Source: Bacilli bacterium (GTDB taxonomy: Bacteria > Bacillota_I > Bacilli_A > RF39 > UBA660). Taken from it: a DNA stretch of 64,000 nt. The notes beneath the pieces were generated by a model. That model worked only from the letters and a program-made list of their open reading frames with translations, was not told the origin of the DNA and did no database searches. The DNA lies in contig CAAGHO010000048.1 of NCBI GenBank assembly GCA_900769695.1, forward strand, positions 4,698 through 68,697, read 5' to 3'. A program made the position numbers and the translations under genes. Shown here piece by piece: positions 24,393-41,045 of the stretch. The stretch's first letter is position 1. Every line of letters starts with the position of its first letter.

Positions 24393-24424
24393 TTGATATA
24401 AATAAAAATTGAGAGGTGTTTTAA

Positions 24425-24883: not shown

Positions 24884-24909
24884 TCATAAAATATAGGTTG
24901 GAGGTTAAG

Positions 24910-27496: not shown

Positions 27497-27503
27497 TGGA
27501 TAT

Positions 27504-29045
27504 ATGAAAAAAGTAGTTATAATAGGAGCAGGTCCAGCTGGTTTAACAGCGGCATATGAATTATTAAAGAAGAGTAATGATTATGAAGTAATCATTTTAG
27601 AAGAAAATAAAAATATAGGTGGAATTTCAAAGACTATTAATTATAAAGGCAATAGAATGGATCTTGGAGGACATAGATTCTTTACTAAAAATCAAAGAAT
27701 AAAAGATTTATGGTTAGAAATATTACCTATTCAGGGAAAAGATTCTTATGATGATAAAAAACTAAAGAAGCATAAAGAATTAGTAAAAAATGGACCAGAT
27801 CCTGAAAAAGAAGACAATGTAATGCTGATAAGAAATAGAGTATCTAGAATCTTTTATCATGATAAATTTTTTGACTATCCAGTAACATTCAACTTAAAAA
27901 CAATAAAAAACTTAGGTTTTATTAATACAATTATTTGTGGATTTAGTTATTTAAGATATAAAATTTTCAAAAGAAAAGAAAATAACTTGGAAGATTTTTA
28001 TATTAATCGTTTTGGTAAGAAACTTTATTCAATGTTTTTTGAAGGATATACAGAAAAAGTTTGGGGAAGAAGTCCTAAGAATATTTCTAAAGAATGGGGA
28101 TATCAAAGAGTAAAAGGTATTTCTATTACAGCTGTCTTAAGGGATTATTTCTTAAAAATATTTAAAATTAAAAACAAAAATAAAGAAACATCATTGATAG
28201 AGCAGTTTTATTATCCTAAATATGGACCTGGAGAGTTATATGAAGAAATGGCTAAAAAAATTGTAAAGATGGGTGGAATTATTAAGAAAAATTCTAAGGT
28301 TATTTCTATAAAAAGGGCAAAAAATAAGATTACTAGTGTAAAATATATAAATAATAATAAAGAATATAATTTGGATGTTGATTATTTAGTTTCATCTATG
28401 CCTATTAAAGATTTAGTTTCAAGTTTAAATAACGTATCTAAAGATGTAAAAGCTGTTTCTGATAATTTACCATATAGAGACTTTATTACAGTTGGAGTCT
28501 TAGTAGATTCTCTTGCGATAAAAAATAAAACAAATATCAAAACAATTAATAATAATATTCCTGATTGTTGGTTATATATCCAAGATACTAGCGTTAAATT
28601 AGGAAGAATTCAAATATTTAATAATTGGTCACCCTATATGGTAAAAGATATAAATAATAAAATTTTTCTCGGACTTGAATATTTTTGTAATGAAGGTGAT
28701 GACTTCTGGAATTTAAGTGATAAAAAAATCAAGGATTTAGCAGAATCAGAGCTAAGGAAAATGAATTTAATAGATGATAGAATTATAGACAGTTGTTGTT
28801 ATAGAGTAAAAAAAGCATATCCAGCTTATTTTGATAGTTATAAAGATTTTGATATCGTAAAAAATTATTTATCAAACATTTCAAATTTGTATTGTATTGG
28901 AAGAAATGGACAACATCGCTATAATAATATGGATCATTCTATGATGACAGGAATAAAGACTGTAGAATGTATTTTGAATAATAAAGATAAAAGTATAATT
29001 TGGGATATTAATACTGATAAAAACTATCATGAACAGCAAAATTAG
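27504..29045 (+). CDS. NAD(P)/FAD-dependent oxidoreductase (amine-oxidase / UDP-galactopyranose-mutase-like fold)
   Basis: The dinucleotide-binding motif [19 protein letters not shown] is present, followed by GGISKT...[12 protein letters not shown]. Confidence 0.75.
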
Positions 29046-29162: not shown

Positions 29163-29504
29163 ATGTTAGATTTAGTACAATTTTTGGTAACAGATAAATG
29201 TCAAGGGCTTGGTCCTATAATAGTAGTAATTAAAAATGTATTTAAGTTAATTCAATTTGCTATTCCAATAGCTTTAGTATTATTTGGTACTATAGATTTA
29301 GGAAAGGCAGTTATATCAAGTGATGAAAAAGAGGTAAAAAAAGCTCAAGGTACATTAATCAAACGTTGTATTTATGCTGTTGCAATTTTCTTTATCATTA
29401 CATTAGTTACATTAATTATGAATATTGTTGCTAAAGGTGTAGCAGACGATAGCGCTAATGGTGCTGATACTTCTAGTTGGGCAACTTGCTGGAATTCAAA
29501 ATAG
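29163..29504 (+). CDS. VirB2/TrbC-like small membrane (pilin-like) conjugal-transfer protein
   Basis: 113 aa with two TM helices flanking GTIDLGKAVISSDEKEVKKAQGTLIKRCIYAVAIFF. It is a paralogue of the next gene and has the layout of pilin-like T4SS subunits of Firmicutes and Mycoplasma ICEs. Confidence 0.5.
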   Translation: MLDLVQFLVTDKCQGLGPIIVVIKNVFKLIQFAIPIALVLFGTIDLGKAVISSDEKEVKKAQGTLIKRCIYAVAIFFIITLVTLIMNIVAKGVADDSANGADTSSWATCWNSK

Positions 29505-29521
29505 TTAATATAAGTGAGTAG

Positions 29522-29562
29522 AAAATAAATAGTAATTGTAATTGCTATTTATTTTTTTTTTT
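29522..29562 (+). terminator. Intra-operon hairpin plus T11 run between the two VirB2-like genes
   Basis: The stem is aaaataaatag/ctatttatttt with a ~12-nt loop, followed by a T-run ending at 29562. TGcTATAAT (29562-29570) follows immediately. Confidence 0.5.
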
Positions 29563-29608
29563 GCTATAATTAACTTGGATTATTTTATGACAAGGGTGGA
29601 TAGTGTCT

Positions 29609-30040
29609 ATGAGAAAAATATTGACAATTATATATATTATGATTATTACTATATCCTTAGTATTACCTATTAATATACAGGCTGCTAATATTAAGATATC
29701 TGATAATAATTATGTTCAAATACTAGATGGAACAATAGATTGTACAAGCCAAGAAACAGGTATACTTGGTAGTGTTCAAGATAAAGAATCTGTTGCTTGG
29801 TTATTACAACAGATTCTAAATTATATTAAGATACTAGGACCGTCTCTTGCAATTGCTTTAGGAACTATTGATTTTGTAAAGGCAATAGTGGTTTCAGATG
29901 AAAAAAGTATGAAAGAGACACAAAAGAAATTTGTGAATAGATTAATTGCAGCTTTTTTATTGTTTTTTGTACCTTTAATAGTTCAAGTGTTATTGAATTT
30001 ATTTGGTTTTACAACAAATATTGCTTGTGGATTAAAATAG
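29609..30040 (+). CDS. VirB2/TrbC-like protein, paralogue with a signal peptide and N-terminal extension
   Basis: A GGGTGGA RBS favours the ATG at 29609. The signal peptide reads ...LPINIQA/AN. The segment GTIDFVKAIVVSDEKSMKETQKKFVNRLIAAFLLFF aligns with 29163..29504. Confidence 0.5.
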   Translation: MRKILTIIYIMIITISLVLPINIQAANIKISDNNYVQILDGTIDCTSQETGILGSVQDKESVAWLLQQILNYIKILGPSLAIALGTIDFVKAIVVSDEKSMKETQKKFVNRLIAAFLLFFVPLIVQVLLNLFGFTTNIACGLK

Positions 30041-30059
30041 TTAATTAGGAGGTAAAAAT

Positions 30060-32270
30060 ATGGTTCAATTATTATTTGGATTTAATAGTGATTTAGCAAC
30101 TCCAGGTGTTGTGCAAAATGCCTTAAGAAGTATACTTATGACACTTGATCATGTTGTATATTGGTGTATTGGTGTTGTTTATAATGTTTTATTTAATATT
30201 TCTGAAACAACAGTTATTAGTTCTGATACGTTAAAATCCTTCTATGGTAGAGTTCAATTAATTTTAGGAGTAATAATGATTTTTAAAATATCAGTATCAT
30301 TATTACAATATGTAATTAATCCAGAAGCATTTAGTGACAAGAAAAAAGGAATTGGTCAAGTAATAACAAGAATAGTAACGATGTTAGCGATGCTTACTGC
30401 AATTGTACCTTTAAATATTCCTTTATCAGCAGAAGATGAAACTAATAAAACATATAATTATTATTTAAATCAAAATGGTTTATTATTTGGTACAATGTTT
30501 TCACTTCAACACAGAATCTTAAAACAAAATACAATAGCTAAACTTGTTCTTGGAAATACAGAAAATTCTTTTACAGTTACAGATAGTGATAATACAGAGT
30601 ATGAAACAGATTTTAGTGAAAATTCAAATGCTGGAGAAGCAGTAGCTGCGTATGTTTTAAAAAGTTTCTTTAGAATAAATGTAAAAGATGAAATAAATAG
30701 TGATAATATTAATAGTCAGGATAATTATTATTGTGGAACAAGTGAAAAAGTAAAAGATGCAATTAATTTTGATAAGGTTGTTGAAAGTGCAGTGTCAACA
30801 GCAGCAGGTGCTACTGCAGGTGCTGTAGTTGGTTCGATTATTCCTGGACTTGGAACTGCAGTCGGTGCTGTAACCGGTGGAGTAATTGGTTTCGTGGGAG
30901 ACAAATTATTCAATTGGGCAACAGCAGATAGAGCTTCAAAGTATTATAAGATGTGGGTTAGTACAACTGATGTTTCAACACTTGCTGAAATGGTTAATGC
31001 AAATTGTGATGATTATTATTTATTTTCTTATTTTCCAGTCGTATCTACTATATGTGGTGTTTTATTACTTTTAGTGTTTGCTGTAACATGTCTAGATGTT
31101 GCAATAAGAGCCTTAAAACTTGCAATACTCCGTTTGATTGCTCCTATTGCTATAATAAGTTATATAGATCCAAAATCAGCAGAAAAAGGTGCTTTCAGTA
31201 ACTGGGTAAAATTACTTATTTCAACATATTTAGATTTATTCTTAAGACTTGCAATAATATATTTTGTTATGTTTATAGTTATGGAAATTATACATGGTGG
31301 TTTAGAGTTGCCACTAGGTAATGGTGTTATTGGATTACTTTCTACTGTTATTATTATCATTGGATTATTCTATTTTGCTAGACAAGCTCCTAAATTTATT
31401 ACCGATGCTTTAGGTATAAAGAGTCTCGGAATGGGAGTTGGTCTTTCAGGATTATTTGGTGCAGCAGGAGCATTAATGGGTGGTGCTGGTCTATCTGGAG
31501 CAGCAGCAGGATTTATGGATGCATCTAATGCATCAGCAGATGCAGCAGCACAAGGAAAACAAGCTCCACCTGCATATAGTTCTCAACGTGATAAAATTGC
31601 ACAAATGCTAACTGGTGATAAAAATGCTAAAGGTGGTATTTTGGGAAATGCTACAAAAGCAATGCAAGATAGAGCTAATGCTAATTTAGCTGAACGTGTA
31701 TTTGGAGTTAATAGAAATAAAGTTGCAGAGGCTAAGAATTTAAAATATGCTTTAGCAAACGAAGCATCAGCAGCTAAGAATAGATATGAAAGATTTGCAA
31801 ATGGTAATATGAGCAATGTAGAAAGAGATGCTTTAATTAATGATTATGCTCGTCAAGAAGCTATGAGTCAAGATGGATGGAACGACTTGTCTGAAGCAGA
31901 GCAAAATGATAGAATTAATTCTTATGTAAATGGTTTATCAGCTCTTTCTACAGATCAACAAAATAGTCTACTTTCTAGCTATCTAGAAGATGATTGGTCA
32001 ACTAAAGAAACTGCTTCTGCTAAACAAAATTCTTGGTATGAAGAAGGAGCAAAAATGCTTGAAAATATGGGTATTAATGAAACTCTTCAAGAAAAATATA
32101 GTGCTAGAGGAAGAAGAAGAGCTAGAAGAGTCTATGATCAAAATTTAGCTGCTAGAGGGGGAGATAGAAATTATAAAGTGCAAAATACATCAAGACCTTC
32201 AACTAGTATAGATCGTGCGGCAGATATTCAACGATTAAATCAAAATAATAACAACAATAATAATCCGTAA
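30060..32270 (+). CDS. VirB6/TrbL-like polytopic T4SS membrane protein with a long C-terminal soluble tail
   Basis: 736 aa with multiple TM helices, Gly/Ala-rich membrane segments (GATAGAVVGSIIPGLGTAVGAVTGGVIGFVG) and a polar C-terminus ending in poly-N. It occupies the position after the pilin-like genes. Confidence 0.55.
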   Translation: MVQLLFGFNSDLATPGVVQNALRSILMTLDHVVYWCIGVVYNVLFNISETTVISSDTLKSFYGRVQLILGVIMIFKISVSLLQYVINPEAFSDKKKGIGQVITRIVTMLAMLTAIVPLNIPLSAEDETNKTYNYYLNQNGLLFGTMFSLQHRILKQNTIAKLVLGNTENSFTVTDSDNTEYETDFSENSNAGEAVAAYVLKSFFRINVKDEINSDNINSQDNYYCGTSEKVKDAINFDKVVESAVSTAAGATAGAVVGSIIPGLGTAVGAVTGGVIGFVGDKLFNWATADRASKYYKMWVSTTDVSTLAEMVNANCDDYYLFSYFPVVSTICGVLLLLVFAVTCLDVAIRALKLAILRLIAPIAIISYIDPKSAEKGAFSNWVKLLISTYLDLFLRLAIIYFVMFIVMEIIHGGLELPLGNGVIGLLSTVIIIIGLFYFARQAPKFITDALGIKSLGMGVGLSGLFGAAGALMGGAGLSGAAAGFMDASNASADAAAQGKQAPPAYSSQRDKIAQMLTGDKNAKGGILGNATKAMQDRANANLAERVFGVNRNKVAEAKNLKYALANEASAAKNRYERFANGNMSNVERDALINDYARQEAMSQDGWNDLSEAEQNDRINSYVNGLSALSTDQQNSLLSSYLEDDWSTKETASAKQNSWYEEGAKMLENMGINETLQEKYSARGRRRARRVYDQNLAARGGDRNYKVQNTSRPSTSIDRAADIQRLNQNNNNNNNP

Positions 32271-32311
32271 TTTATATTTTGTTTTTATGATAAAAAGGAG
32301 TGTGATATATA

Positions 32312-32635
32312 GTGAATAATACATATTTAATTCCAGCTAATACGAAGAGCGGAAAGTTAATTTTGGGAATGTTTAAACCATTTGACTTAATATTGTTTGG
32401 AAGTGGGATAGCCATGACATTATTGTTATTAGTTATTCTACCAATGGAATCATTGATAGTTACAGTAATTGTTATACTTCCAGCATTGATTACAGGTTTT
32501 TTGGTTATTCCTGTTCCAAATTACCATAATATGTTAAATGTCATTGGTGAGTTAGTTGAATTTATAACAACTCAAAGAAATTATGAATGGAAAGGTTGGT
32601 GTGTAGGATATGAAAAAGGCAAGCGAAAAAAGTAG
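32312..32635 (+). CDS. PrgI/VirB3-like small membrane protein
   Basis: 107 aa (GTG start) with two TM helices. It lies immediately upstream of and overlaps VirB4, as in Gram-positive T4SS operons. Confidence 0.5.
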   Translation: MNNTYLIPANTKSGKLILGMFKPFDLILFGSGIAMTLLLLVILPMESLIVTVIVILPALITGFLVIPVPNYHNMLNVIGELVEFITTQRNYEWKGWCVGYEKGKRKK

Positions 32636-33161
32636 ATCAACTGAGGATTGGCTTCCAGTGAGGAGTATTCAAAATAACTGCATTGTAACTTATGGAAATA
32701 ATAAAGTCAGCGGAGTAAAAATAACTCCAAGGAATATATTTATTCTTGATCAAAGTTCTCAAGATAATGTATTAATTAGCTTGAAAAACTTTTATAATAT
32801 GATAGATTTTGAATTTTGGTTAGTTGTGGCAGATAGGCCAGTAGATATATCTGTTTATATGTCTCAACTTCAATTATTACTTAATAATACTCAAAGTGCA
32901 GCTATTAGAAAGTTAATTCTTCAAGATTTAGATAAAGGTAATACATTTATTAACAATAATATTGTTGATACAGAATATTACATTTTATTTAAAGAAAAAG
33001 ATGATAATATGCTTGAGAAGAAAATTAGATTATTAATTAATGGTTTGGCAACTTGTGGATTAAATGCTTCTCAAGTTACTAATGATGATTTAAGAATTGT
33101 TTTAGATAATTTCTTAAATGGGGGTCAAACAACAGAATTTGGAACGGTGATGCCAGTATGA
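32610..33161 (+). CDS. VirB4-family ATPase, N-terminal domain encoded as a separate ORF
   Basis: EDWLPVRSIQNNCIVTYGNNKVSGVKITPRNIFILDQSSQDNVLISLKNFYNMIDFEFWLVV matches the N-terminal region of Gram-positive VirB4 (ConE/TcpF/Orf16-type) proteins. It ends in ATGA, overlapping the next start. Confidence 0.6.
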   Translation: MKKASEKSRSTEDWLPVRSIQNNCIVTYGNNKVSGVKITPRNIFILDQSSQDNVLISLKNFYNMIDFEFWLVVADRPVDISVYMSQLQLLLNNTQSAAIRKLILQDLDKGNTFINNNIVDTEYYILFKEKDDNMLEKKIRLLINGLATCGLNASQVTNDDLRIVLDNFLNGGQTTEFGTVMPV

Positions 33162-34948
33162 GTATAAGTATAAGAGGAGAATTAGCTCCTAAAGGTTTAA
33201 GCTTTAATGCTAGTGATTTTTTCATAAGTGATAAGTATGCAACTATTTTGACAGTGATTGGATTTCCAAGATATATTCAACCAGGTTATTTAGCGACTTT
33301 AACTAGTATGTCAGGAATTAAAATTGTAATTAAACATATTCCAGTACCTTTTTCAACAATGTCTAAAATGCTTAACAAACAAGTTGCTGACTTAAAAGAA
33401 AAGTATCAAAGAGAACGTGATCAAGTAATGCGTGAAAAAATAAGACAAGATGCTGAAAGTTTGGAATATTATACATCTATGCTTGCGGCATCTCAGGCTC
33501 GAATTTTTGATTTTCAAATGCACATTATGATTACAGCTGATACTAAAGAAAGTTTGGAACTAAAGAAAGTTAATGTTAAGAATTACTTGGATGCTATGGA
33601 ATTAAAAGCAATTTCATTACGTTTTGAACAAGAAAAAGTATTAAAATCTATCTTACCAATTTTCCCACCTCAAGAAATAGAGGATAGAATTGGTACTCCG
33701 ATTCCATCTATTACTTTATCAGCTATGTATCCATTTATTTTTGATAGTATAAAAGATCCAGGACTTTCAACTTTACTTGGTGTTGATTTTTCTGGAGGAG
33801 TAATTTTATTTAATCAATTTTTATATAAAATAAGAAAAGAAAATAATAGAAATAATGCTAATATGATTATACTTGGTACTTCTGGTTCAGGAAAATCAAC
33901 AGCAGCTAAATTAATGCTTAGAACACATATAAGAAACGGCTGTCAAATAGTTGCGATAGACCCTGAAAATGAATATTCAGAAATTACTAAAGCATTTGGT
34001 GGAGATCAAGTTGATATCGGTAAAGGTGGAGAATTTGGTCTTATAAATCCATTAGAGGTCGTAATTGATGCTGACGAGGAAGAAATTAAGCAAGGACTTG
34101 GTTATACTATTCTTACTCGTACTTTACAATTTCTAAAAGCTTTTATGAAATATTATGATCCTTCAATTCAAGAAGATGTATTAACTATGTTTAGTGAAGT
34201 TGTTCAAGATACTTATAAAAGATTTGGAATTGATTTTAATACGGATTTCTCAGGATTTACATCAAAAGATTATCCAACATTTAGCGATGTATATGCAACT
34301 ATTAAAGGACGTTTAATGTCAATGACAGAACAAACTCAAGAACGCGATATTATGGAACGTCTTGAATTAAAGGTAAGACCTATCGTAAAGGAATTAAAGT
34401 TTTACTTTGATGGTCATACTACAATAAATAGTGATAGTGACTTTATGGTCTTTAACATTAAGGAATTAATGAATAGCGATTCTAATGTTAAAAACGCTTT
34501 ATTCTTTAATGTTTTAAAATATGCTTGGGGACTTTGTTTAGACACAAGTGTAGATACCGTGTTAATGATTGATGAAGCCCATGTTTTATTAGGAGATCAT
34601 AACAGTTTAGGAGCTGACTTTTTAGCGCAAGTTCAACGTCGTGCTAGAAAATATAACACAGGTACAATTATTATTACACAACAACCAAGTGACTTTTCTG
34701 CTCCTGATGTTATTACTCAAGGTAAAGCAATATTTGATAATGCTTCATATTACTTAGTTATGGGACTAAAAAAACAAGCAGTTGAAGATTTAAGTTTATT
34801 AATTGACTTAAATGAAGGAGAAAAAGAAAGTATAAAAAGATATTCTCAAGGAGAAGCGCTATTTGTATGTGGAAATAGAAGAATGAGAATTAATGTAGCA
34901 GTTACTAAAAATGAACTAGATTCATTTGGTAGCGGTGGTGGATTCTAA
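33158..34948 (+). CDS. VirB4-family T4SS ATPase (central and C-terminal P-loop domains)
   Basis: LAPKGLSFNASDFFISDKYATILTVIGFPRYIQPGYL is present, with Walker A ILGTSGSGKST and Walker B VLMIDEAHVLL, plus RRARKYNTGTIIITQQPSD. Confidence 0.85.
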   Translation: MSISIRGELAPKGLSFNASDFFISDKYATILTVIGFPRYIQPGYLATLTSMSGIKIVIKHIPVPFSTMSKMLNKQVADLKEKYQRERDQVMREKIRQDAESLEYYTSMLAASQARIFDFQMHIMITADTKESLELKKVNVKNYLDAMELKAISLRFEQEKVLKSILPIFPPQEIEDRIGTPIPSITLSAMYPFIFDSIKDPGLSTLLGVDFSGGVILFNQFLYKIRKENNRNNANMIILGTSGSGKSTAAKLMLRTHIRNGCQIVAIDPENEYSEITKAFGGDQVDIGKGGEFGLINPLEVVIDADEEEIKQGLGYTILTRTLQFLKAFMKYYDPSIQEDVLTMFSEVVQDTYKRFGIDFNTDFSGFTSKDYPTFSDVYATIKGRLMSMTEQTQERDIMERLELKVRPIVKELKFYFDGHTTINSDSDFMVFNIKELMNSDSNVKNALFFNVLKYAWGLCLDTSVDTVLMIDEAHVLLGDHNSLGADFLAQVQRRARKYNTGTIIITQQPSDFSAPDVITQGKAIFDNASYYLVMGLKKQAVEDLSLLIDLNEGEKESIKRYSQGEALFVCGNRRMRINVAVTKNELDSFGSGGGF

Positions 34949-34974
34949 TTAGATTCTAGAAGTAGGTGAGGTTC

Positions 34975-36825
34975 ATGCCAAAAGAAAATAAGTATCAAGC
35001 AAATCGTAATCATATAGGTGAAAATAATAAATCTGATGTTCCTAATACAAAAACAGAGAAACTGGCAGACAATAATGGGTCTGCCGATTATTTTACTGGA
35101 GGCAAAGGAGAAGAATCTCTTGCTCAAAAAATTGCTAATGCTAAATTAGGTGATAAGGCTTTAGGAGCATTAGGAAATGCATTAAAAAATACACCAAAAC
35201 TTAATCGTGCTGCTGAAAGGTTAAATGATTTTGATAAAGATCGCAGTGGATTGTCACCTAAAGAGGTTGAAGCAGCTAAGAAAAGAAATTGGGCAACATA
35301 TGATTTAAATGATAATAAAGATGGTAATCCATCATCTACCTCAGAAACTAATAATAATGATAAAGGTAATAAAGTTTTAAATGTTTTTGGGAAAAAATCA
35401 AAAAAAACAAAAAATAAATTAGGTGATTGGAGTCATGTTACAGATGAAGATGATTCTAATGGTGATGATTCCTCTTCATCATCTGATTTTTCTTTAAAAG
35501 CCAATATTGATTTATCTAAATTTTTTACATTAAAAACTAAGATTTGTATAGGTATTATTATTTTCTTAATTTTTATTATTTTTTCTTATATAATAATGAT
35601 TCTTGATGAGGCTGATAAAGAAGATAAAGATATTTCTTCTACTACTGGAAATGGATCTTGTATGTATTCGATTAAAGGATTTACAGATGGATCTAGAGTG
35701 ATTCAAAGAGAAGTAAGTATTAATAATCTTAAAGTAAAATTAATGGAATGTGATGGTTCTAAACCAGTTTCTGGAGAAGAACTTGTTGATTTTGAAAAAT
35801 ATATATTAGGTGTAACTTATCAAGAAAACGGTAGTGGTTCAGATGAGGGTGTAAAAACAGAAGCTGTCGCAGCTAGAAGTTTTGCTTTATCAAGACCAGC
35901 TATGATGGGTAATTCTGGTGGAACTAAACTGTATGAAGAAGATGGGCAATGGATTTTGCAACTTCGTGCTTGTACTAACGATCAAGCATATTGTGATCCT
36001 GATAAAGGTTGTTGGAGTAATACCGCTGGTGGTGAATCTGGAGGAACTATTCATAGTGGACAAGATACAACAAAGGCCTGGTCAAGAGGACCTGTAGCAG
36101 CAGATTCAAAATTAAGAACACTAGTTGCTGAAACTAAGGGTCAAGTTCTTGTTGATTCTTCTGGATATATTTTAAGTACAGGTTATAGAAGTACTGATCA
36201 AAGACAATGGAATTCAAGTGCCTTTGACTACAAGCAAATCCTACTTCAACATTATAGCAGTCAAGGTGCGGCAGATATTCTTCAAATGTCATGTACTACA
36301 TCAAGTCAAGGATCAACTACTGGTGAATTCACTAATTGGAAGCAATATGATCCAGCTTGGGCAACAGTTAATATTGGAAATAGTGGTAAAACAATTAAAA
36401 ACATAGGATGTACAGTCACATCAATATCTATGCTTATAGCAAAATCTGGAGTACCTACTAATATAGAAAACTTTAATCCTGGTACTTTTGTTCAAGCTTT
36501 AAATAATAATAATGGATTTACATCTGGTGGTGCTCTTTATTGGTCTACTGTATCAAAAATTATACCTAATTTTGAATATCAAGGACAAAAATATGTCGCA
36601 GGAAAATCTAAAGCAGAAAAATTACAACAATTAAACGAATTATTAAATAACGGTTATTTTGTTACTGCAGAAGTTAAAGGAAATACTGGACAACACTGGG
36701 TTGCAGTGGATAATATATCTGGAGAAAATATAAATATGTTTGATCCAGCTAGTACATCAACGGATATGTGGTCTCAATACAGTTGGACTAATACTTCTAC
36801 ATATGCATACTTTAAGGTAATTTAA
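34975..36825 (+). CDS. T4SS-associated cell-wall hydrolase: disordered N-terminus, TM anchor, SpoIID-like domain, C-terminal C39-like Cys peptidase domain
   Basis: YILGVTYQENGSGSDEGVKTEAVAARSFAL is SpoIID/LytB-like. The C-terminal NIGCTVTSISMLIAK ... GQHWVAVDN resembles a papain-like C39_2-type Cys/His pair. The start is taken as the ATG at 34975. Confidence 0.65.
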   Translation: MPKENKYQANRNHIGENNKSDVPNTKTEKLADNNGSADYFTGGKGEESLAQKIANAKLGDKALGALGNALKNTPKLNRAAERLNDFDKDRSGLSPKEVEAAKKRNWATYDLNDNKDGNPSSTSETNNNDKGNKVLNVFGKKSKKTKNKLGDWSHVTDEDDSNGDDSSSSSDFSLKANIDLSKFFTLKTKICIGIIIFLIFIIFSYIIMILDEADKEDKDISSTTGNGSCMYSIKGFTDGSRVIQREVSINNLKVKLMECDGSKPVSGEELVDFEKYILGVTYQENGSGSDEGVKTEAVAARSFALSRPAMMGNSGGTKLYEEDGQWILQLRACTNDQAYCDPDKGCWSNTAGGESGGTIHSGQDTTKAWSRGPVAADSKLRTLVAETKGQVLVDSSGYILSTGYRSTDQRQWNSSAFDYKQILLQHYSSQGAADILQMSCTTSSQGSTTGEFTNWKQYDPAWATVNIGNSGKTIKNIGCTVTSISMLIAKSGVPTNIENFNPGTFVQALNNNNGFTSGGALYWSTVSKIIPNFEYQGQKYVAGKSKAEKLQQLNELLNNGYFVTAEVKGNTGQHWVAVDNISGENINMFDPASTSTDMWSQYSWTNTSTYAYFKVI

Positions 36826-36836
36826 GAGGTGAAAAT

Positions 36837-37595
36837 ATGAAAAATAGAAGATATATGTATGTGATTTTAGGATTAATATTTTCACTTCTTCTTTTTTACA
36901 TACTTTATGGTAGAAATATAAAAAAGAATTATGATGATTATGAAGCTCTAATTTTACCTAATGATATTTCATTTGTAAAATCTAAAAATAAGTGGACAAA
37001 AGTTATTGATAATAAACTTTTCAATTGGAAAGAGTATTATATATATACTAATAATGAATACTATGGTAGAAAGAATTTATACTATAATGAAAAGTGGTAT
37101 ATATTTGAAAAAGATAAAACGCCTTTAATGTATAATGGAGAAATCTTAGCATTTAATAAGAATCATAAGGTTCTAGAATTTAATACGGTTGATATTAACT
37201 TTGATGAATATATAAATAAAGTATTAGAAGATAACAAAATAGATAGAAATACCGCTATGACTAGCTATTATATTAATTTAGATTTAGATGGTGATAACGA
37301 TTTAGAAAAAATTTATGTTGTTACAAATAGGTTTGAAACAGAAAATATTTCTAATAAATTCTTTAGTTATGTGTTTTTTGTAAAAAACAATAACATTACT
37401 TATATTTATAATGAAAGCAGTATAGATGCTGATTCATATAGTGGCTGCAAACCATATATTAGTAATATTTTTGATATTGATGATGATAAAAAATATGAAA
37501 TTGCGATGGCTTGTTCGCAATATAGTGATGGACAAGTTAATTATAAAATATATAAATATGATAAAGGTAAATTTAATTTGCTTGTATCTAATTAA
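36837..37595 (+). CDS. Membrane-anchored T4SS accessory protein (possible VirB8/TcpC functional analogue)
   Basis: 252 aa with one N-terminal TM helix. It lies between the hydrolase and the coupling protein. I recognise no motif. Confidence 0.35.
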   Translation: MKNRRYMYVILGLIFSLLLFYILYGRNIKKNYDDYEALILPNDISFVKSKNKWTKVIDNKLFNWKEYYIYTNNEYYGRKNLYYNEKWYIFEKDKTPLMYNGEILAFNKNHKVLEFNTVDINFDEYINKVLEDNKIDRNTAMTSYYINLDLDGDNDLEKIYVVTNRFETENISNKFFSYVFFVKNNNITYIYNESSIDADSYSGCKPYISNIFDIDDDKKYEIAMACSQYSDGQVNYKIYKYDKGKFNLLVSN

Positions 37596-37637
37596 CATTT
37601 AATATATAATATATGTTGAGAGAAAGAAGTGATCTTT

Positions 37638-39764
37638 ATGAAGTTAAAAATAAGGGTAGATTCCGAAGATTTGTTGATATTTGGAATCTTTGCAATATTT
37701 TTACTGTTTGTAGTAGCTATAGCAGTTGCAAATTTATCTTCTTTAGCAACTGACGGTTTTTTTTCAGGAATTAATCCTTTACCTGCATTTAGTAAAGATA
37801 ATATTGCAACTACTATAGTGTTTTACTTGTTGTGTTTATTCGCACTAATTGTCAGTGTTAGCTCAAAAATATTTGAGTTTGATAAGGGTGTTGGTATAAC
37901 AACAAATAAAAAAGATAAAGGCTATAGTAGATGGGCTAAAGAAAAAGAGATGAAAGAAGAACTTTCTTTGATAACTCCATTACAAGAAAAATCAAAAGTT
38001 GCCGGTGTTCCTTTAATATTAAAAGAACAAGAAGCTTGGATAGATGATAGTGAGTATCATACCTTAGTTATTGGTGCTACTGGTTCTGGTAAAACTCAAA
38101 CAGTAATTAAACCTACTGTTAAGTTTTTAGCAAAAGCAGGAGAAAGTATGATTATAACAGATCCTAAGGGTGAAATTTATGAAAGTACTGCTGAAATGCT
38201 TCGTAGTAAGGGTTACCAAATATTACTATTAAACTTTCGTGATCCTCAAAATGGTAATTCTTGGAATCCGATGTCTTTACCATATGAAATATATAAATCT
38301 GGAAAGCAAGATAAAGCAATAGAATTACTTGATGATTTAGCACTAAATATTCTTTATGATGAATCAAATGCAAATGCTGATCCATTCTGGGAAAAAACTT
38401 CAGCTGACTATTTTTCAGGCCTTGCCTTAGGTTTATTTGAAGATGCTAAAGAAGAAGAAATTAATATTAATAGTATTAACTTAATGAGTACTGTTGGAGA
38501 AGATAAATTTGGTGGATCAACATATATTAAAGAATACTTTGGAGCAAAAGATCCAGCATCAGCTGCATCGATTAATGCTTTTGGTACCATAACTGCTCCT
38601 AGTGAAACTAAGGGCTCAATTTTATCAGTGTTTAAACAGAAAGTAAAACTTTTTGCGTCACGTGAAAATTTAAGTGAGATGTTATCTCATAGTGATATAG
38701 ATTTAGCCTCAATTGGTAAAAAGAAAACAGCAGTATTTATTGTTATTCAAGATGAAAAGAAGACATATCACTCACTTGTTACAATTTTATTAAAACAAAT
38801 ATATGAAACTTTAATAGATGTTGCCCAAAAAAATGGTGGTAAACTTCCAATTAGAACTAACTTCTTATTGGATGAGTTTGCTAATATGCCACCACTTAAG
38901 GATGTTACAACAATGATTACAGCAGCACGTTCTCGACAAATCAGATTTACAATGATTATTCAAAACTTCGCTCAGTTAAATAAAGTTTATGGAAAAGAAG
39001 ATGCTGAAACCATTAAAGGTAACTGTGGTAATATCATTTACTTAATAAGTACAGAGCTTGCAGCACTAGAAGAAATTTCTAAAATGTGTGGTGAGGTAAA
39101 AAGTAAAAAAGATGATAAGACAGCTTCAACACCACTTGTTACGATATCAGATTTACAACGTATGAAGCAATTTGAGACAATTATTTTACGTATGAGAAAA
39201 CAACCATTTAAAACAAAAATGACACCAGATTTTAAAATAGACTGGGGAGAAAAATATTCGAAAGCAAAATATCCAACTCGTGCAAAAAGAGAAGTTCATA
39301 CTTTTGATATTAAAGAATTTGTAAAATCAGAAAAAAAGAAAAAATTATTAGAAATGATGAATGCTGCTGATACTGATGCAGATATGCAAAATCTATCAAA
39401 TTCACCATTTGCAGCAGGGCCACTTTTTGGTGATATTCCAAAAATGCCACCTGTTATGAATAATCCTTTTCAAGATATTAAAAACACACCTAAGACTGCT
39501 TCAGAGCCATCAGATTTTAATGTAGATGAGCTTGTTAAAAAGATAGATGCTAAAATAGCAGAATTAGAAGAAGAAGAAAGAAGAAATAAAAAGGAACAAG
39601 AAGAAAAGAAAAAATCAGATAACCTAGAAGTAATTGGTGATAAAGAATCTGAAACTCTTCATAGTAATATAGAAGTTGATAAAAATAAACCTACTTCAAG
39701 TCTTAATTTGGATGATGATGACGATGATAGTGATGAATTCTTTGATGATTTTTTTGATAATTAG
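37638..39764 (+). CDS. Type IV coupling protein, VirD4/TraG family
   Basis: Two N-terminal TM helices are followed by Walker A LVIGATGSGKTQTV, then ITDPKGE, FLLDEFANMPP (Walker B) and RSRQIRFTMIIQNFAQL. The C-terminal tail is acidic (DDDDDDSDEFFDDFFDN). Confidence 0.85.
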   Translation: MKLKIRVDSEDLLIFGIFAIFLLFVVAIAVANLSSLATDGFFSGINPLPAFSKDNIATTIVFYLLCLFALIVSVSSKIFEFDKGVGITTNKKDKGYSRWAKEKEMKEELSLITPLQEKSKVAGVPLILKEQEAWIDDSEYHTLVIGATGSGKTQTVIKPTVKFLAKAGESMIITDPKGEIYESTAEMLRSKGYQILLLNFRDPQNGNSWNPMSLPYEIYKSGKQDKAIELLDDLALNILYDESNANADPFWEKTSADYFSGLALGLFEDAKEEEININSINLMSTVGEDKFGGSTYIKEYFGAKDPASAASINAFGTITAPSETKGSILSVFKQKVKLFASRENLSEMLSHSDIDLASIGKKKTAVFIVIQDEKKTYHSLVTILLKQIYETLIDVAQKNGGKLPIRTNFLLDEFANMPPLKDVTTMITAARSRQIRFTMIIQNFAQLNKVYGKEDAETIKGNCGNIIYLISTELAALEEISKMCGEVKSKKDDKTASTPLVTISDLQRMKQFETIILRMRKQPFKTKMTPDFKIDWGEKYSKAKYPTRAKREVHTFDIKEFVKSEKKKKLLEMMNAADTDADMQNLSNSPFAAGPLFGDIPKMPPVMNNPFQDIKNTPKTASEPSDFNVDELVKKIDAKIAELEEEERRNKKEQEEKKKSDNLEVIGDKESETLHSNIEVDKNKPTSSLNLDDDDDDSDEFFDDFFDN

Positions 39765-39782
39765 AAGAAATGAGGAATAGTT

Positions 39783-41045
39783 ATGAGCGATAATTTAGAT
39801 AATAAGGATGAACTTGTAAGTGAAGAAGATACTTTAGATAACGAGTCAGATACAAATTCAGAAGAACACACTGAAGTTAAAAGTACTAATACTAATAATT
39901 CAAATAATAACAATGAGTTTAGAGAAAAAATGATTAAAATGTTTGGTTTTGTTATTATTGCTTTAATAGTAGTTTTAATTGTAGGATTTTTAATTTCATT
40001 AGTTTTTAAAAAGAATTATAGTTATGCTACTGTAGAAGAAGAACTAAAAAATGCAGCTATTAATTATTTTAAAGATAATAAAAATAAATTACCAAAAAAC
40101 ACTTCAGAAATAGTTGAAATAGATTCTAATATTTTAGCAAATAATAAATATATGAAATCTTTAGATAAATATCTTAAAGATGATTCATGTACAGGTAAAG
40201 TATCCGTTGAAAAGATTGATAATAAATCATATAGTTATACACCTAAGATAACTTGTAAAGATTATACAACTACTAAATTTTCTGATGCAATTACTAAAAA
40301 TAGTGATGTTGTAACTAGTGGATTTGGTGTTTATAATATAAATAACGAATATGTATATCGTGGTAATGAAGTTAATAATTATGTACGTTTCAATGATTCA
40401 GAAAAAGTATGGAGAGTTGTAAAAGTAACTTCAAACAATGAAATAGTTTTAATCAGTAACGATAAAACAAGAAATGTATTTAAGTGGGATGAAAAGTATA
40501 ATAATGAATATGAAGATAACTATGGAATAAATATATATAAAAACAGCTATATTTCTACAATACTAAAAAAATTATATGCTAATTCATTGAATGATGATGA
40601 GGAAGATTTTTATAGTAATGAAGAAACTGATATCTTAACAAAAGAAGAAAAAACAAAAATAGTAGAGTTTAATGCCTGTGTTGGAAAAAGATCAGAGTCA
40701 GATACTTCAAGAGATGGTTCAGCCGAATGTCAAACAATAGAAAAAACAAAAATGTCATTACTTTCTACTTATGATTTCTTAAATGCTTCACTTGATACAA
40801 ACTGTAATTCAATCATTAAACCTGATTGTCAAAATTACAATTATTTAATATCAGATTATAATTATTGGTTAGCAAATGGATCAGCTGATAGTTCAAGTAA
40901 GGTATATAGAGTTACATCTTCTGGATATATTCAATCATCATATGCTAATGTTGAATCATATGCGAGAGTTGTTATTCATTTATCTGAAAATACTATGTTA
41001 GTAAAAGGAAAAGGTACTAAGGATAATCCTTATGTAATAAGGTAG
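39783..41045 (+). CDS. Membrane-anchored surface protein (candidate mating adhesin), paralogous to 14273..16045
   Basis: It has an acidic N-terminus and a TM anchor. LKNAAINYFKDNKNKLPKN...C...C aligns with the N-terminus of the 14273 protein. The C-terminus has YNYWLANGSADSS...ARVVIHL followed by GKGTKDNPYVIR. Confidence 0.55.
   Translation: MSDNLDNKDELVSEEDTLDNESDTNSEEHTEVKSTNTNNSNNNNEFREKMIKMFGFVIIALIVVLIVGFLISLVFKKNYSYATVEEELKNAAINYFKDNKNKLPKNTSEIVEIDSNILANNKYMKSLDKYLKDDSCTGKVSVEKIDNKSYSYTPKITCKDYTTTKFSDAITKNSDVVTSGFGVYNINNEYVYRGNEVNNYVRFNDSEKVWRVVKVTSNNEIVLISNDKTRNVFKWDEKYNNEYEDNYGINIYKNSYISTILKKLYANSLNDDEEDFYSNEETDILTKEEKTKIVEFNACVGKRSESDTSRDGSAECQTIEKTKMSLLSTYDFLNASLDTNCNSIIKPDCQNYNYLISDYNYWLANGSADSSSKVYRVTSSGYIQSSYANVESYARVVIHLSENTMLVKGKGTKDNPYVIR

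What the first reader, a model, noticed from the sequence alone, without database searches (positions are those of the whole stretch)
29163..41045. Complete-looking Gram-positive T4SS cluster without relaxase, integrase or replication genes, embedded among housekeeping genes
The cluster encodes the channel and energetics set: VirB2-like x2, VirB6-like, VirB3-like, VirB4, a wall hydrolase, a VirD4 coupling protein and an adhesin-like protein. I see no MOB relaxase, recombinase, integrase, excisionase or obvious att repeats anywhere in the 64 kb. The flanks are a GT-C-like/FAD oxidoreductase pair and rhodanese/DedA/RmuC. Three explanations are possible. The DNA-processing module may lie elsewhere (a split or trans-mobilising element). 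The ICE may be decaying. The T4SS may have been domesticated for protein or DNA export. Its proximity to a Tad-like pilus locus is also notable.
Basis: partly seen in the sequence, partly recalled or inferred. Interest (0 to 1): 0.7.

Follow-up and report, generated by a model that had tools for sequence, protein, structure and literature searches.

The report
Domesticated T4SS–Tad pilus locus, RF39
The relaxase-less type IV secretion gene cluster is real and intact, but it is not a mobile element: fused to a Tad pilus locus, it is a strongly conserved chromosomal feature of hundreds of species of the uncultured, genome-reduced gut order RF39, derived from a plasmid-type conjugation module and apparently kept for another cell-contact function.

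Summary
Window 29163-41045 encodes ten intact, co-oriented genes:
- two VirB2-like pilins
- VirB6
- a VirB3-like protein
- VirB4 split into an N-domain ORF and an ATPase ORF
- a wall hydrolase
- VirD4
- two membrane-anchored surface proteins

No relaxase, integrase or att repeat occurs in the 64 kb window. None was seen in 10 kb beyond each end in the same species.

The cluster is not an ICE. About 580 stretches in a one-genome-per-species collection carry VirB4 relatives. The 80 loci examined are 82-97% identical and come from RF39-type gut bacteria. Gene order is almost invariant and the flanks are housekeeping genes.

VirB4 is more conserved than the neighbouring RmuC and TrpRS (dN/dS 0.02-0.06). 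Walker motifs are intact in all orthologues.

In nearly all species the Tad locus abuts the T4SS, giving a 28 kb super-locus (window 12616-41045). The GT-C/oxidase pair is a lineage-specific insertion.

Both halves have homologues in the Bacillus thuringiensis plasmid pBMB64. There a MobP3 relaxase sits beside VirD4. RF39 lacks it.

The closest parallel is the relaxase-less chromosomal T4SS of Patescibacteria. The cargo is unknown. I found no report of this system in RF39.

The parts
12616..14178 (+). Polytopic membrane protein with a DUF4352-like extracellular domain. First gene of the conserved super-locus.
   Evidence: Pfam DUF4352 4e-4, below the cut-off. It is the upstream boundary of conserved synteny in 45 metagenome loci.
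14273..16045 (+). TM-anchored surface protein with a bacterial Ig-like domain. Its domains end in a GxGTxxxPY motif shared with gene 39783-41045.
   Evidence: PF16403 3.8e-15; conserved position; motif read from the sequence.
16061..16840 (+). Sortase.
   Evidence: PF04203 1.4e-9; conserved position. No LPXTG-type substrate was found in the window.
16824..19820 (+). 998-aa secreted, cysteine-rich protein of unknown function.
   Evidence: No Pfam hit. Conserved position with 24-45% identity. A large protein sits at the analogous position in pBMB64.
19835..20281 (+). DUF5411 small membrane protein.
   Evidence: PF17424 1.8e-44. A weak DUF5411-like gene (8.9e-6, below the cut-off) also precedes CpaB in pBMB64.
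20302..21105 (+). CpaB/RcpC-like Tad pilus assembly protein.
   Evidence: PF16976 29.2 bits, cut-off 28.8; 28% identity, 1e-20 to the pBMB64 SAF-domain gene.
21148..22464 (+). CpaF/TadA-type secretion ATPase.
   Evidence: PF00437 1.4e-27; 548 or more relatives in metagenome contigs; 2e-32 to the pBMB64 ATPase.
22478..24153 (+). Two polytopic membrane proteins at the TadB/TadC platform position (22478-23371 and 23371-24153).
   Evidence: No Pfam hit. The assignment is inferred from position. The first has 28% identity, 2e-9, to the gene that follows the ATPase in pBMB64. 63-76% conserved across species.
24237..24883 (+). Flp-like 51-aa pilin (24237-24392) and a TadE-like minor pilin (24425-24883).
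   Evidence: Short ORFs with hydrophobic N-termini; conserved position. No HMM confirmation.
24898..25908 (+). Conserved 336-aa protein, last gene of the Tad half. It may be a degenerate ParA/TadZ-like protein, but this is unverified.
   Evidence: No Pfam hit and no PDB hit. hhalign against the pBMB64 AAA protein aligns only the P-loop region, probability 2%. Present in all loci.
26000..29045 (+). Lineage-specific insertion: a GT-C-like membrane protein and an FAD amine oxidase. Not part of the machine.
   Evidence: Between the Tad and T4SS halves only in the window species, L002 and L003. Absent there in the other ~75 species loci and in the 45 metagenome contigs. Pfam Amino_oxidase 1.5e-15.
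29163..29504 (+). VirB2-like T4SS pilin 1.
   Evidence: PF18895 18.5 bits, below the cut-off. Two hydrophobic helices around a charged loop. Paralogue of pilin 2.
29603..30040 (+). VirB2-like T4SS pilin 2 with a signal peptide.
   Evidence: PF18895 29.4 bits, cut-off 26.6. Orthologues range from 109 to 567 aa through a variable N-terminal extension.
30060..32270 (+). VirB6/TrbL-like polytopic channel protein with a long C-terminal tail.
   Evidence: PF19597 TrbL_4 30.1 bits, cut-off 27. Fast-evolving, 30-52% identity.
32312..32635 (+). VirB3/PrgI/TcpE-like small membrane protein.
   Evidence: Lies immediately upstream of VirB4. Weak PrgI (best 0.0012) and TcpE (best 0.0091) matches in 8 and 13 of 53 orthologues. 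dN/dS 0.12-0.16.
32610..33161 (+). VirB4 N-terminal domain encoded as its own ORF (TrsD-like).
   Evidence: NF045975 positions 96-277, 1.4e-17. Precomputed PF26593 TraC-like, weak. The split is conserved in all species. 3e-13 to the pBMB64 227-aa gene at the same position.
33158..34948 (+). VirB4 ATPase domain protein.
   Evidence: NF045975 354 bits at positions 295-891; PDB 4ag5 2.4e-58; 82-97% identity in 80 species; dN/dS 0.02-0.06; Walker A GTSGSGKS in 82/82 orthologues.
34966..36825 (+). Membrane-anchored cell-wall hydrolase in a variable slot.
   Evidence: PF08486 SpoIID 27.3 bits, cut-off 23. The same slot holds M23, NlpC/P60, glucosaminidase+CHAP, or GDSL+CHAP+lysozyme proteins in other species.
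36837..37595 (+). TM-anchored beta-rich protein of unknown function, fast-evolving.
   Evidence: No Pfam hit. AF2 pLDDT 75 with no significant PDB fold match, so not VirB8-like. Only 5 homologues by word search.
37629..39764 (+). VirD4 type IV coupling protein with an acidic C-terminal tail.
   Evidence: PF02534 1.4e-55 and PF12696 4e-25; NF045973 313.9 bits, cut-off 250; 32% identity, 2e-70 to pBMB64 VirD4; Walker A and B in 74/74 orthologues.
39783..41045 (+). TM-anchored surface protein with a lectin-like/DUF6273-type ectodomain. Candidate adhesin.
   Evidence: AF2 pLDDT 83.8, pTM 0.75. Foldseek 9qa6 (T. ramosa IgA peptidase) E 2.9e-7. 408 homologues, some carrying PF19789.

Best explanation
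The cluster is the T4SS half of a roughly 28 kb chromosomal 'Tad pilus + monoderm (MPF_FATA-type) T4SS' super-locus, window 12616-41045. It was inherited from a conjugative-plasmid-type module. It has lost its relaxase and is now a fixed, largely vertically inherited core organelle of RF39-type gut Bacilli. It no longer moves itself.

Proposed working (inferred):
1. Tad pili and the membrane-anchored Ig-like and lectin-like surface proteins make contact with another cell.
2. The species-specific hydrolase opens peptidoglycan.
3. VirB3, VirB6 and the two-part VirB4 build the membrane channel and a short VirB2-type pilus.
4. VirD4 recruits cytoplasmic cargo through its acidic tail and feeds it to the channel.

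My best guess is that the system serves an obligatory interaction with neighbouring cells, delivering or exchanging proteins or other macromolecules. This would resemble the relaxase-less T4SS that Patescibacteria need for epibiotic growth, rather than self-transfer of DNA.

Shown here: composition, intactness, conservation, selection, ancestry, and the absence of nearby DNA-processing genes. Inferred: direction of transport, cargo and target.
For: Component set.

Lineage-wide conservation:
- About 580 related stretches in a one-genome-per-species collection. The best 80 are 82-97% identical over the full 596 aa.
- More than 7,200 clusters at 90% identity collapse to a single cluster at 50% identity. 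The next relatives are at 41-44% and then 34% or less.
- Gene order is almost invariant, with housekeeping flanks.
- Ca. Faecimonas/CAG-877 members place the lineage in order RF39.

Selection: dN/dS is 0.02-0.06 for VirB4, 0.08-0.18 for VirD4 and below 1 for every gene. Mean pairwise distance is 0.145 for VirB4 and 0.197 for RmuC. Walker motifs are universal.

No mobility genes:
- No relaxase, integrase or recombinase Pfam hit in the window's ORFs or among the genes called for 10 kb on each side in the same species.
- No att-like repeats.
- The cognate MobP3 relaxase has no hit in 2.7 Mb of related loci.

T4SS and Tad evolve as a unit, rho 0.61-0.73.

Ancestry: pBMB64 carries MobP3-VirD4-small ORF-TrbL-PrgI-N-domain-VirB4 ... 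large protein-DUF5411-CpaB-AAA-CpaF. Six window proteins have homologues there. A Mycoplasmatota plasmid also links VirB4 and Tad genes.

For a first-order interaction role rather than a dispensable one:
- RF39 genomes are highly reduced, lacking fatty-acid and several amino-acid and vitamin pathways (PMC6784871).
- The Patescibacteria parallel: split TrsD+VirB4, PF18895 pilins, no relaxase, essential for epibiotic growth (PMC12102498).
- Surface parts and the hydrolase slot diversify fast.
Against: - No cargo, effector or target was identified.
- There is no evidence that RF39 cells attach to other cells.
- VirD4 still scores above the cut-off of a conjugation-type family. The nearest VirB4 model is the mycoplasma ICE ATPase. 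Both fit DNA transfer equally well.
- Whole genomes were not scanned, so a relaxase elsewhere is possible.
- Prevalence within RF39 as a fraction of genomes was not measured.
- Expression is untested.
- Relative to the closest species, synonymous divergence of the T4SS genes exceeds that of four flanking genes. Inheritance is therefore not purely vertical.
Confidence: 0.55

Rival explanations
1. The machine is a DNA-exchange apparatus. It transfers chromosomal DNA between RF39 cells, or imports DNA. It uses either a relaxase encoded elsewhere or a relaxase-independent route, as proposed for mycoplasma chromosomal transfer. The Tad pilus brings cells together, as Ups pili do for the archaeal Ced importer.
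For: - VirD4 scores above the cut-off of the conjugative CD1115 family. The best VirB4 model is the mycoplasma ICE ATPase.
- Ancestry from a conjugative-type module.
- Synonymous divergence of all ten T4SS genes (0.75-1.56) is 2-4 times that of four flanking genes (0.26-0.36) relative to the closest species. This suggests allelic exchange by recombination.
- RmuC lies just downstream in most species.
- Type IV pili are needed for Ced DNA import (PMC12102498).
Against: - No relaxase, primase or ssDNA-handling gene lies in the conserved locus or nearby in 80 species.
- Per PMC12102498, protein-secreting T4SSs also use coupling proteins, so VirD4 does not argue for DNA.
- By general expectation (my own knowledge, not tested here), gene-exchange systems are often lost in some lineages. 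Here the ATPase is more conserved than a tRNA synthetase.
- dS is also high in some non-T4SS genes (GT-C 0.72, DUF3603 0.59), so the mosaic pattern is not specific to the cluster.
Confidence: 0.3
2. The locus is an ordinary or decaying ICE or integrated plasmid whose integrase and relaxase lie outside the region examined.
For: - T4SS gene content is typical of monoderm conjugative elements.
- GC content is slightly higher in the cluster (0.28-0.32) than in the immediate surroundings (0.22-0.25).
Against: - Same locus, order and neighbours in about 80 species, with divergence broadly tracking the flanks.
- All genes are intact and under purifying selection.
- No att repeats.
- No mobility genes within 10 kb beyond the window.
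- An insertion of ordinary metabolic genes sits inside the super-locus in one sub-lineage.
- Similar GC rises occur at other conserved genes in the window, for example 48-50 kb and 60-62 kb.
Confidence: 0.03
3. The locus is an adhesion and colonisation organelle only. The Tad pilus, VirB2-type pilus and surface proteins mediate attachment to mucus, host cells or particles. The ATPases serve pilus biogenesis, and nothing is translocated.
For: - Rich in surface proteins: Ig-like, lectin-like, sortase and two pilin systems.
- By my own knowledge, Tad pili are classical adhesion organelles.
- Fast evolution of the exposed parts.
Against: VirD4 has no established role in pilus biogenesis, by my own knowledge. 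Yet it is present in every locus that extends far enough and is under strong purifying selection, with intact Walker motifs and a conserved TraG-D_C domain.
Confidence: 0.1

Closest known systems
Chromosomal relaxase-less T4SS of Patescibacteria/CPR (Quinonero-Coronel et al. 2025, PMC12102498)
   Same: - A chromosomal, lineage-wide, MPF_FATA-derived T4SS in genome-reduced bacteria.
- VirB4 with a separately encoded N-domain homologue (TrsD), a PrgI/VirB3-like protein and VirB6.
- VirB2-like pilins of Pfam PF18895.
- Wall hydrolases next to virB4.
- No relaxase.
- Accompanied by a type IV-class pilus.
   Different: - A different phylum (Bacillota, order RF39).
- The nearest named VirB4 relatives are from Erysipelotrichales-type bacteria and a Mycoplasmatota plasmid, at about 31-33% identity. 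No Patescibacteria sequence could be placed for comparison, so an independent domestication is likely but unproven.
- VirD4 is inside the cluster and highly conserved here. In Patescibacteria it is usually distant, and it is non-essential in Ca. Southlakia.
- The pilus partner is a Tad/Flp system fused into the same locus.
- Only two pilin genes rather than long arrays.
T4SS + Tad-like module of Bacillus thuringiensis plasmids pBMB64/pBMB67 (MOB-suite: conjugative, MOBP)
   Same: - Same gene set, with matching order within the T4SS core (small ORF, TrbL/VirB6, PrgI/VirB3, separate N-domain, ~600-aa VirB4) and within the Tad half (large protein, DUF5411-like, CpaB, CpaF, platform protein).
- VirD4 of the CD1115 family.
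- Six window proteins match at 26-32% identity.
   Different: - The plasmid has a MobP3 relaxase directly upstream of VirD4, plus replication genes. RF39 has neither.
- The T4SS and Tad halves are in the opposite order, and VirD4 sits at the other end of the T4SS genes.
- RF39 adds a sortase, an Ig-like protein and lectin-like surface proteins.
- Conjugation of pBMB67 itself has not been shown experimentally (PMC9673590).
Mycoplasma ICE conjugation ATPase family (NCBIfam NF045975, Mbov_0397 family)
   Same: Best-scoring curated VirB4 model. The N-domain ORF and the ATPase ORF together cover model positions 96-891 of 894. Pilin 1 weakly resembles a mycoplasma conjugal transfer protein family.
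   Different: - The score of 354 bits is below the equivalog cut-off of 590.
- VirB4 is one polypeptide in mycoplasmas and two here.
- By my own knowledge, mycoplasma ICEs are mobile, carry a DDE recombinase and vary between strains. This locus is fixed.
Archaeal Ced DNA importer with Ups pili
   Same: A conjugation-derived VirB4/VirB2-like machine works together with a type IV-class pilus without a relaxase (as summarised in PMC12102498). NCBIfam CedD and CedB models give weak hits (8.6e-12 and 1.6e-4).
   Different: Only remote similarity. The Ced and Ups loci are separate, and no VirD4-type coupling protein of the conjugative kind is involved.

Membership tests
Monoderm conjugative T4SS (MPF_FATA) | VirB4 ATPase of the Firmicutes/Tenericutes type | tested here: met
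   NF045975 1.4e-105 and NF045971 1.7e-50, both below their equivalog cut-offs. PDB 4ag5 2.4e-58. 2,599 plasmid records match, mostly Enterococcus, Bacillus and Staphylococcus, all below 60% identity.
Monoderm conjugative T4SS (MPF_FATA) | VirD4/TcpA-type coupling protein | tested here: met
   NF045973 313.9 bits, cut-off 250. PF02534 1.4e-55.
Monoderm conjugative T4SS (MPF_FATA) | VirB6/PrgH-like polytopic protein | tested here: met
   TrbL_4 30.1 bits, cut-off 27.
Monoderm conjugative T4SS (MPF_FATA) | VirB3/PrgI-like small membrane protein | tested here: inconclusive
   No hit for the window protein. Sub-threshold PrgI matches in 8 and TcpE matches in 13 of 53 orthologues. The PDB profile search found nothing.
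Monoderm conjugative T4SS (MPF_FATA) | Cell-wall hydrolase (VirB1 analogue) | tested here: met
   A SpoIID domain in the window. M23, CHAP, glucosaminidase or lysozyme domains occupy the same slot in other species.
Monoderm conjugative T4SS (MPF_FATA) | VirB8-like (PrgL/TcpC/TraM fold) protein | tested here: inconclusive
   The best candidate, 36837-37595, modelled at pLDDT 75 has no significant fold match. 39783-41045 is lectin-like, not NTF2-like.
Monoderm conjugative T4SS (MPF_FATA) | Relaxase (and oriT) associated with the T4SS | tested here: not met
   No relaxase Pfam hit in the window or in the precomputed Pfam lists for the genes called 10 kb beyond each end. MobP3 of the homologous plasmid has no hit in 2.7 Mb of related loci. 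Whole genomes were not scanned.
Integrative conjugative element (ICE) | Integrase, recombinase or excisionase | tested here: not met
   None in the 64 kb window, in 10 kb on each side, or next to the locus in 80 species.
Integrative conjugative element (ICE) | Flanking att direct repeats | tested here: not met
   Only 70-85% AT-rich chance matches.
Integrative conjugative element (ICE) | Variable presence and horizontal distribution | tested here: not met
   Same locus and neighbours in about 80 species and 45 metagenome contigs. Distances correlate with the flanks, rho 0.43-0.64. Strain-level absence was not tested.
Patescibacteria-type chromosomal T4SS | Chromosomal, lineage-wide, no relaxase | tested here: met
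Patescibacteria-type chromosomal T4SS | Separate TrsD-like VirB4 N-domain gene next to virB4 | tested here: met
   32610-33161 matches positions 96-277 of the VirB4 model. The split is conserved.
Patescibacteria-type chromosomal T4SS | VirB2-like pilin genes (PF18895/PF04956) near virB4 | tested here: met
   Two genes, one of them above the Pfam cut-off.
Patescibacteria-type chromosomal T4SS | VirB4 inside the monophyletic Patescibacteria clade | tested here: inconclusive
   No tree was built. The nearest named relatives are Thomasclavelia, Solobacterium and a Mycoplasmatota plasmid at about 31-33% identity. This points to a separate origin, but most representatives carry no name.
Tad/Flp pilus system | CpaF/TadA ATPase and CpaB | tested here: met
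   PF00437 1.4e-27. PF16976 29.2 bits, cut-off 28.8.
Tad/Flp pilus system | TadB/TadC platform proteins, Flp pilin, prepilin peptidase | tested here: inconclusive
   The platform and pilin genes are inferred from position and topology only. They have no Pfam hits. No prepilin peptidase was found in the window.

The most novel reading that the evidence does not exclude
RF39 bacteria are among the most prevalent uncultured, genome-reduced members of the human and animal gut. In this reading they are obligately contact-dependent: episymbiotic or parasitic on other gut bacteria or on host cells. They would use this domesticated conjugation-derived Tad+T4SS organelle to obtain or exchange essential macromolecules. 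That would be an independent, Bacillota version of the Patescibacteria lifestyle, and it would explain why RF39 resists cultivation.
Probability: 0.2. Interest if true: 0.9.

Novelty: new variant of a known kind. Interest (0 to 1): 0.66.

Why it matters
RF39 is widespread in gut metagenomes. It lacks fatty-acid, amino-acid and vitamin pathways and has no cultured member (PMC6784871). How it makes a living is an open question.

The most conserved protein in this region is the ATPase of a relaxase-less T4SS that is welded to a Tad pilus and surface adhesins. That gives a concrete, testable hypothesis for dependence on other cells, and a target for imaging, metatranscriptomics and co-culture design.

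It also shows that domestication of monoderm conjugation machinery is not peculiar to Patescibacteria. The plasmid pBMB64 shows a related module that still has its relaxase beside VirD4.

The pilin findings bear on a published statement that Gram-positive T4SS classes lack VirB2-type pilins. A PF18895-type pilin (29.4 bits, cut-off 26.6) sits in this Bacillota-lineage T4SS cluster. A weak, sub-threshold PF18895 match also occurs at the C-terminus of a 781-aa protein on a Mycoplasmatota plasmid. Together these suggest the statement needs qualifying.

Tried and rejected
- Promoter and terminator scan of 24-43.5 kb. Fewer promoter-like sites than in shuffles and no convincing internal terminators, so it says nothing about operon structure.
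- Repeat search for att sites. Only chance matches.
- tRNA scan as a possible integration target. None found.
- Sequence searches against PDB. Nothing for the hydrolase, the 420-aa protein, the VirB3-like profile, the pilin profile (only spurious GPCR hits) or the 336-aa protein profile.
- Fold search of the 252-aa protein. No significant match, so the VirB8-like idea is dropped.
- TadZ assignment of the 336-aa protein. hhalign against the plasmid AAA protein gave probability 2%, so it is left as unverified.
- Second cluster-member look-up to name distant VirB4 relatives. It returned no names.
- Literature. Searches for RF39 with 'type IV secretion', 'VirB4', 'pili' or 'epibio' found nothing on this system. 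Neither Nayfach 2019 nor Wang 2020 mentions it. One read fetched the wrong paper.
- Whole-genome relaxase scan of the complete RF39 MAG OZ006970.1.

Full report
**Observation.** The window is about 25% G+C. Almost all genes are on the + strand and there are no tRNA genes. Positions 29163-41045 hold ten tightly packed or overlapping ORFs. Profile searches identify the following:
- Two paralogous VirB2-like pilins (Pfam PF18895, 29.4 and 18.5 bits, cut-off 26.6).
- A TrbL/VirB6-like polytopic protein (30.1 bits, cut-off 27).
- A 107-aa two-helix membrane protein.
- A 183-aa ORF and a 596-aa ORF that match positions 96-277 and 295-891 of one VirB4 model, NCBIfam NF045975, the mycoplasma ICE ATPase family. 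The ATPase part also matches PDB 4ag5 at 2e-58.
- A membrane-anchored SpoIID-domain hydrolase.
- A 252-aa membrane-anchored protein.
- A VirD4 coupling protein (PF02534 1.4e-55; NF045973 313.9 bits, cut-off 250).
- A 420-aa membrane-anchored protein.

One addition is that VirB4 is encoded in two pieces. One caution is that the VirB3 assignment is only weakly supported: sub-threshold PrgI/TcpE matches in 8 and 13 of 53 orthologues.

**No DNA-processing genes.** Pfam scans of every ORF of at least 80 aa in the window found no relaxase, integrase, recombinase or replication initiator. The window is most of a 71.9 kb metagenome contig. Longer contigs of the same species show polysaccharide-synthesis genes for 10 kb upstream and GatCAB, AspRS and transporters for 10 kb downstream. 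No direct repeats bracket the region.

**Whose genome.** The VirB4 ATPase has more than 7,200 relatives at 90% clustering. The top 120 are all about 596 aa and at least 86% identical.
- In a collection holding one genome per species, about 580 stretches encode a relative. The best 80 are 82-97% identical over the full length.
- Their records are gut and rumen MAGs labelled uncultured Tenericutes, Bacilli, 'Mycoplasma sp. CAG:877', Ca. Faecimonas and Ca. Onthousia.
- Ca. Faecimonas is GTDB genus CAG-877, family CAG-611, order RF39 (PMC8035907).
- RF39 is described as an uncultivated order with highly reduced genomes that lack fatty-acid and several amino-acid and vitamin pathways (PMC6784871).

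**Comparative anatomy.** I called ORFs in the 80 species loci and matched them to the window's proteins. The order is almost invariant: DUF5411-CpaB-CpaF-TadB-TadC-(Flp)-TadE-336 aa | pilin1-pilin2-VirB6-VirB3-VirB4N-VirB4C-hydrolase(+1-4 small genes)-VirD4-420 aa. In most species rhodanese-DedA-RmuC-YuzI-DUF3603-TrpRS follow.
- Where the downstream neighbours differ they are still housekeeping genes: nicotinamidase, NAPRTase, P-type ATPase and similar.
- A second set of 45 metagenome contigs, anchored on CpaF, extends the conserved block upstream to DUF4352-Ig-like protein-sortase-998 aa protein. Beyond that the neighbours vary.
- The conserved unit is therefore window 12616-41045.
It is an insertion.

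**Selection.** Nei-Gojobori estimates against five species give these dN/dS values:

| Component | dN/dS |
|---|---|
| VirB4 ATPase | 0.02-0.06 |
| VirB4 N-domain | 0.09-0.18 |
| VirD4 | 0.08-0.18 |
| VirB3-like | 0.12-0.16 |
| Pilins | 0.18-0.46 |
| VirB6, hydrolase and the two anchored proteins | 0.18-0.97 (dS near saturation) |

- Mean pairwise protein distance among species is 0.145 for VirB4, against 0.197 for RmuC. VirB4 is also more conserved than TrpRS, which is 56-78% identical.
- Walker A and B motifs are present in 82/82 VirB4 and 74/74 VirD4 orthologues.
- At 50% clustering the whole family is one representative. The next relatives are at 41-44% and then 34% or less.

This pattern fits a long-fixed component under heavy constraint. 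It does not fit a decaying or recently acquired element. T4SS and Tad proteins co-vary (rho 0.61-0.73), as strongly as genes within one module. Correlation with RmuC is weaker but positive.

**Ancestry.** No plasmid in PLSDB reaches 30% identity with VirB4, but the best hits are informative.
- B. thuringiensis plasmid pBMB64 is typed conjugative, MOBP. It carries MobP3 relaxase-VirD4 (CD1115 family)-small ORF-TrbL-PrgI-227 aa ORF-VirB4 (DUF87). Further on it carries an 851 aa protein-DUF5411-like-SAF/CpaB-AAA-T2SS/T4P ATPase-membrane proteins.
- The window's VirD4, both VirB4 parts, CpaB, CpaF and TadB all match that plasmid, with E-values from 2e-9 to 3e-77.
- A 98 kb plasmid of a Mycoplasmatota isolate likewise places a Tad set two genes after VirB4. 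It has a 781-aa protein with a weak, sub-threshold C-terminal PF18895 match.

The T4SS+Tad combination is thus an ancestral conjugation-type module. RF39 carries a chromosomal derivative without the relaxase. The plasmid's MobP3 finds nothing in the window or in 2.7 Mb of related loci. The nearest named chromosomal relatives of VirB4 are from Thomasclavelia and Solobacterium, which are Erysipelotrichales by my own knowledge.

**Individual parts.**
- The slot after VirB4 always holds a wall hydrolase, but with different catalytic domains: SpoIID here; M23, M23+NlpC/P60, glucosaminidase+CHAP, or GDSL+CHAP+phage-type lysozyme elsewhere.
- Pilin 2 orthologues range from 109 to 567 aa through an N-terminal extension.
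- The 420-aa protein gives a confident model (pLDDT 83.8). Its only significant PDB match is a region of the Thomasclavelia ramosa IgA peptidase, and it has weak C-type-lectin-like matches. Reading the sequence by eye I saw no HExxH motif. I read it as a binding protein rather than an enzyme.
- The 252-aa protein has no recognisable fold relative.

**Mechanism.** Shown here: an intact channel and energetics set, a coupling protein, a hydrolase, two pilus systems, anchored binding proteins, fixation in the chromosome, and no nearby DNA-processing genes. The proposed sequence of contact, wall opening, channel assembly and VirD4-mediated cargo recruitment is inferred from established knowledge of T4SS and Tad systems.

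I favour a first-order role in interaction with other cells, with non-self-DNA cargo. My reasons are these:
- Conservation exceeds that of the neighbouring housekeeping genes RmuC and TrpRS.
- Exposed parts and hydrolase specificity diversify quickly.
- RF39 is metabolically dependent on outside sources.
- The closest architectural parallel is the relaxase-less T4SS of Patescibacteria, which has split TrsD+VirB4 and PF18895 pilins and is reported as essential for epibiotic growth (PMC12102498).

The main rival is DNA exchange between cells. It is supported by the conjugative character of VirD4 and by one unexplained result. Against the closest species, dS of all ten T4SS genes (0.75-1.56) is two to four times that of four flanking genes (0.26-0.36). 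This suggests allelic exchange. I cannot separate these readings computationally.

**Novelty.** I found no paper linking RF39 to a T4SS, VirB4 or this locus. The kind of system, a domesticated relaxase-less monoderm T4SS, is known from Patescibacteria. This is a new variant because:
- It occurs in another phylum.
- It retains VirD4 inside the cluster.
- It is fused with a Tad pilus and sortase locus.
- A plasmid, pBMB64, carries a related module that still has its relaxase.

**Caveats.**
- Prevalence was not measured as a fraction of RF39 genomes.
- No phylogeny was built.
- No complete genome was scanned for relaxases.
- Expression and phenotype are unknown.

Noticed in passing
window 26000-29045: The GT-C-like membrane protein and FAD amine oxidase are a lineage-specific insertion between the Tad and T4SS halves. 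It is seen only in this species, L002 and L003, and the gene order is swapped in L003.
   Followed up: partly
window 29163-41045 versus L002: Against the closest species, synonymous divergence of all ten T4SS genes (0.75-1.56) is 2-4 times that of the flanking amine oxidase, rhodanese, DedA and RmuC genes (0.26-0.36). This hints at allelic exchange of the cluster between lineages. GT-C (0.72) and DUF3603 (0.59) are intermediate.
   Followed up: partly
window 34966-36825; L060:11769-16011; L010:11811-14039; L019:11808-14690: The slot after VirB4 is filled by non-orthologous peptidoglycan hydrolases in different species: SpoIID, M23, NlpC/P60, glucosaminidase+CHAP, or GDSL+CHAP+lysozyme.
   Followed up: partly
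window 29603-30040 and orthologues; L082:10094-12439: Pilin 2 orthologues vary from 109 to 567 aa through an N-terminal extension on a C-terminal VirB2-like domain. A Mycoplasmatota plasmid has a 781-aa protein with a weak PF18895 match (E 0.0012, 19.3 bits, below the 26.6 cut-off) at its C-terminus.
   Followed up: no
window 57902-61865: A Drt3a-like defence reverse transcriptase lies at 59125-59850 (PADLOC 1.3e-25). It is preceded by an overlapping 181-aa ORF in another frame (58620-59165) and a Zeta-toxin-like kinase, and followed by a 661-aa protein with no Pfam or PADLOC match. The two-ORF layout recurs in other contigs of the species. An RT also abuts the T4SS end in L077.
   Followed up: partly
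window 50412-51750: An AAA ATPase with weak IetA/TniB-like matches, followed by an overlapping 131-aa ORF. It may be a defence or MoxR-like pair.
   Followed up: no
window 5844-6810: A GT2 glycosyltransferase appears split. A 147-aa ORF covers domain positions 1-121 of 168, and a separate 165-aa ORF follows. The same layout occurs in other contigs of the species.
   Followed up: no
window 16061-16840: A sortase is conserved inside the super-locus, but no ORF of at least 60 aa in the window carries a C-terminal LPXTG-type sorting signal. Its substrate is unknown.
   Followed up: partly
window 14273-16045 and 39783-41045: The Ig-like surface protein and the 420-aa T4SS-end protein share a terminal GxGTxxNPY motif. 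Some homologues of the latter carry DUF6273 (PF19789), and its model resembles part of the Thomasclavelia ramosa IgA peptidase.
   Followed up: partly
L163 (pBMB64) and L082 (CP074574.1): Bacillota and Mycoplasmatota plasmids couple a monoderm T4SS with a full Tad-like gene set, including a DUF5411-like gene before CpaB. This suggests Tad pili act as mating pili in this plasmid family.
   Followed up: partly
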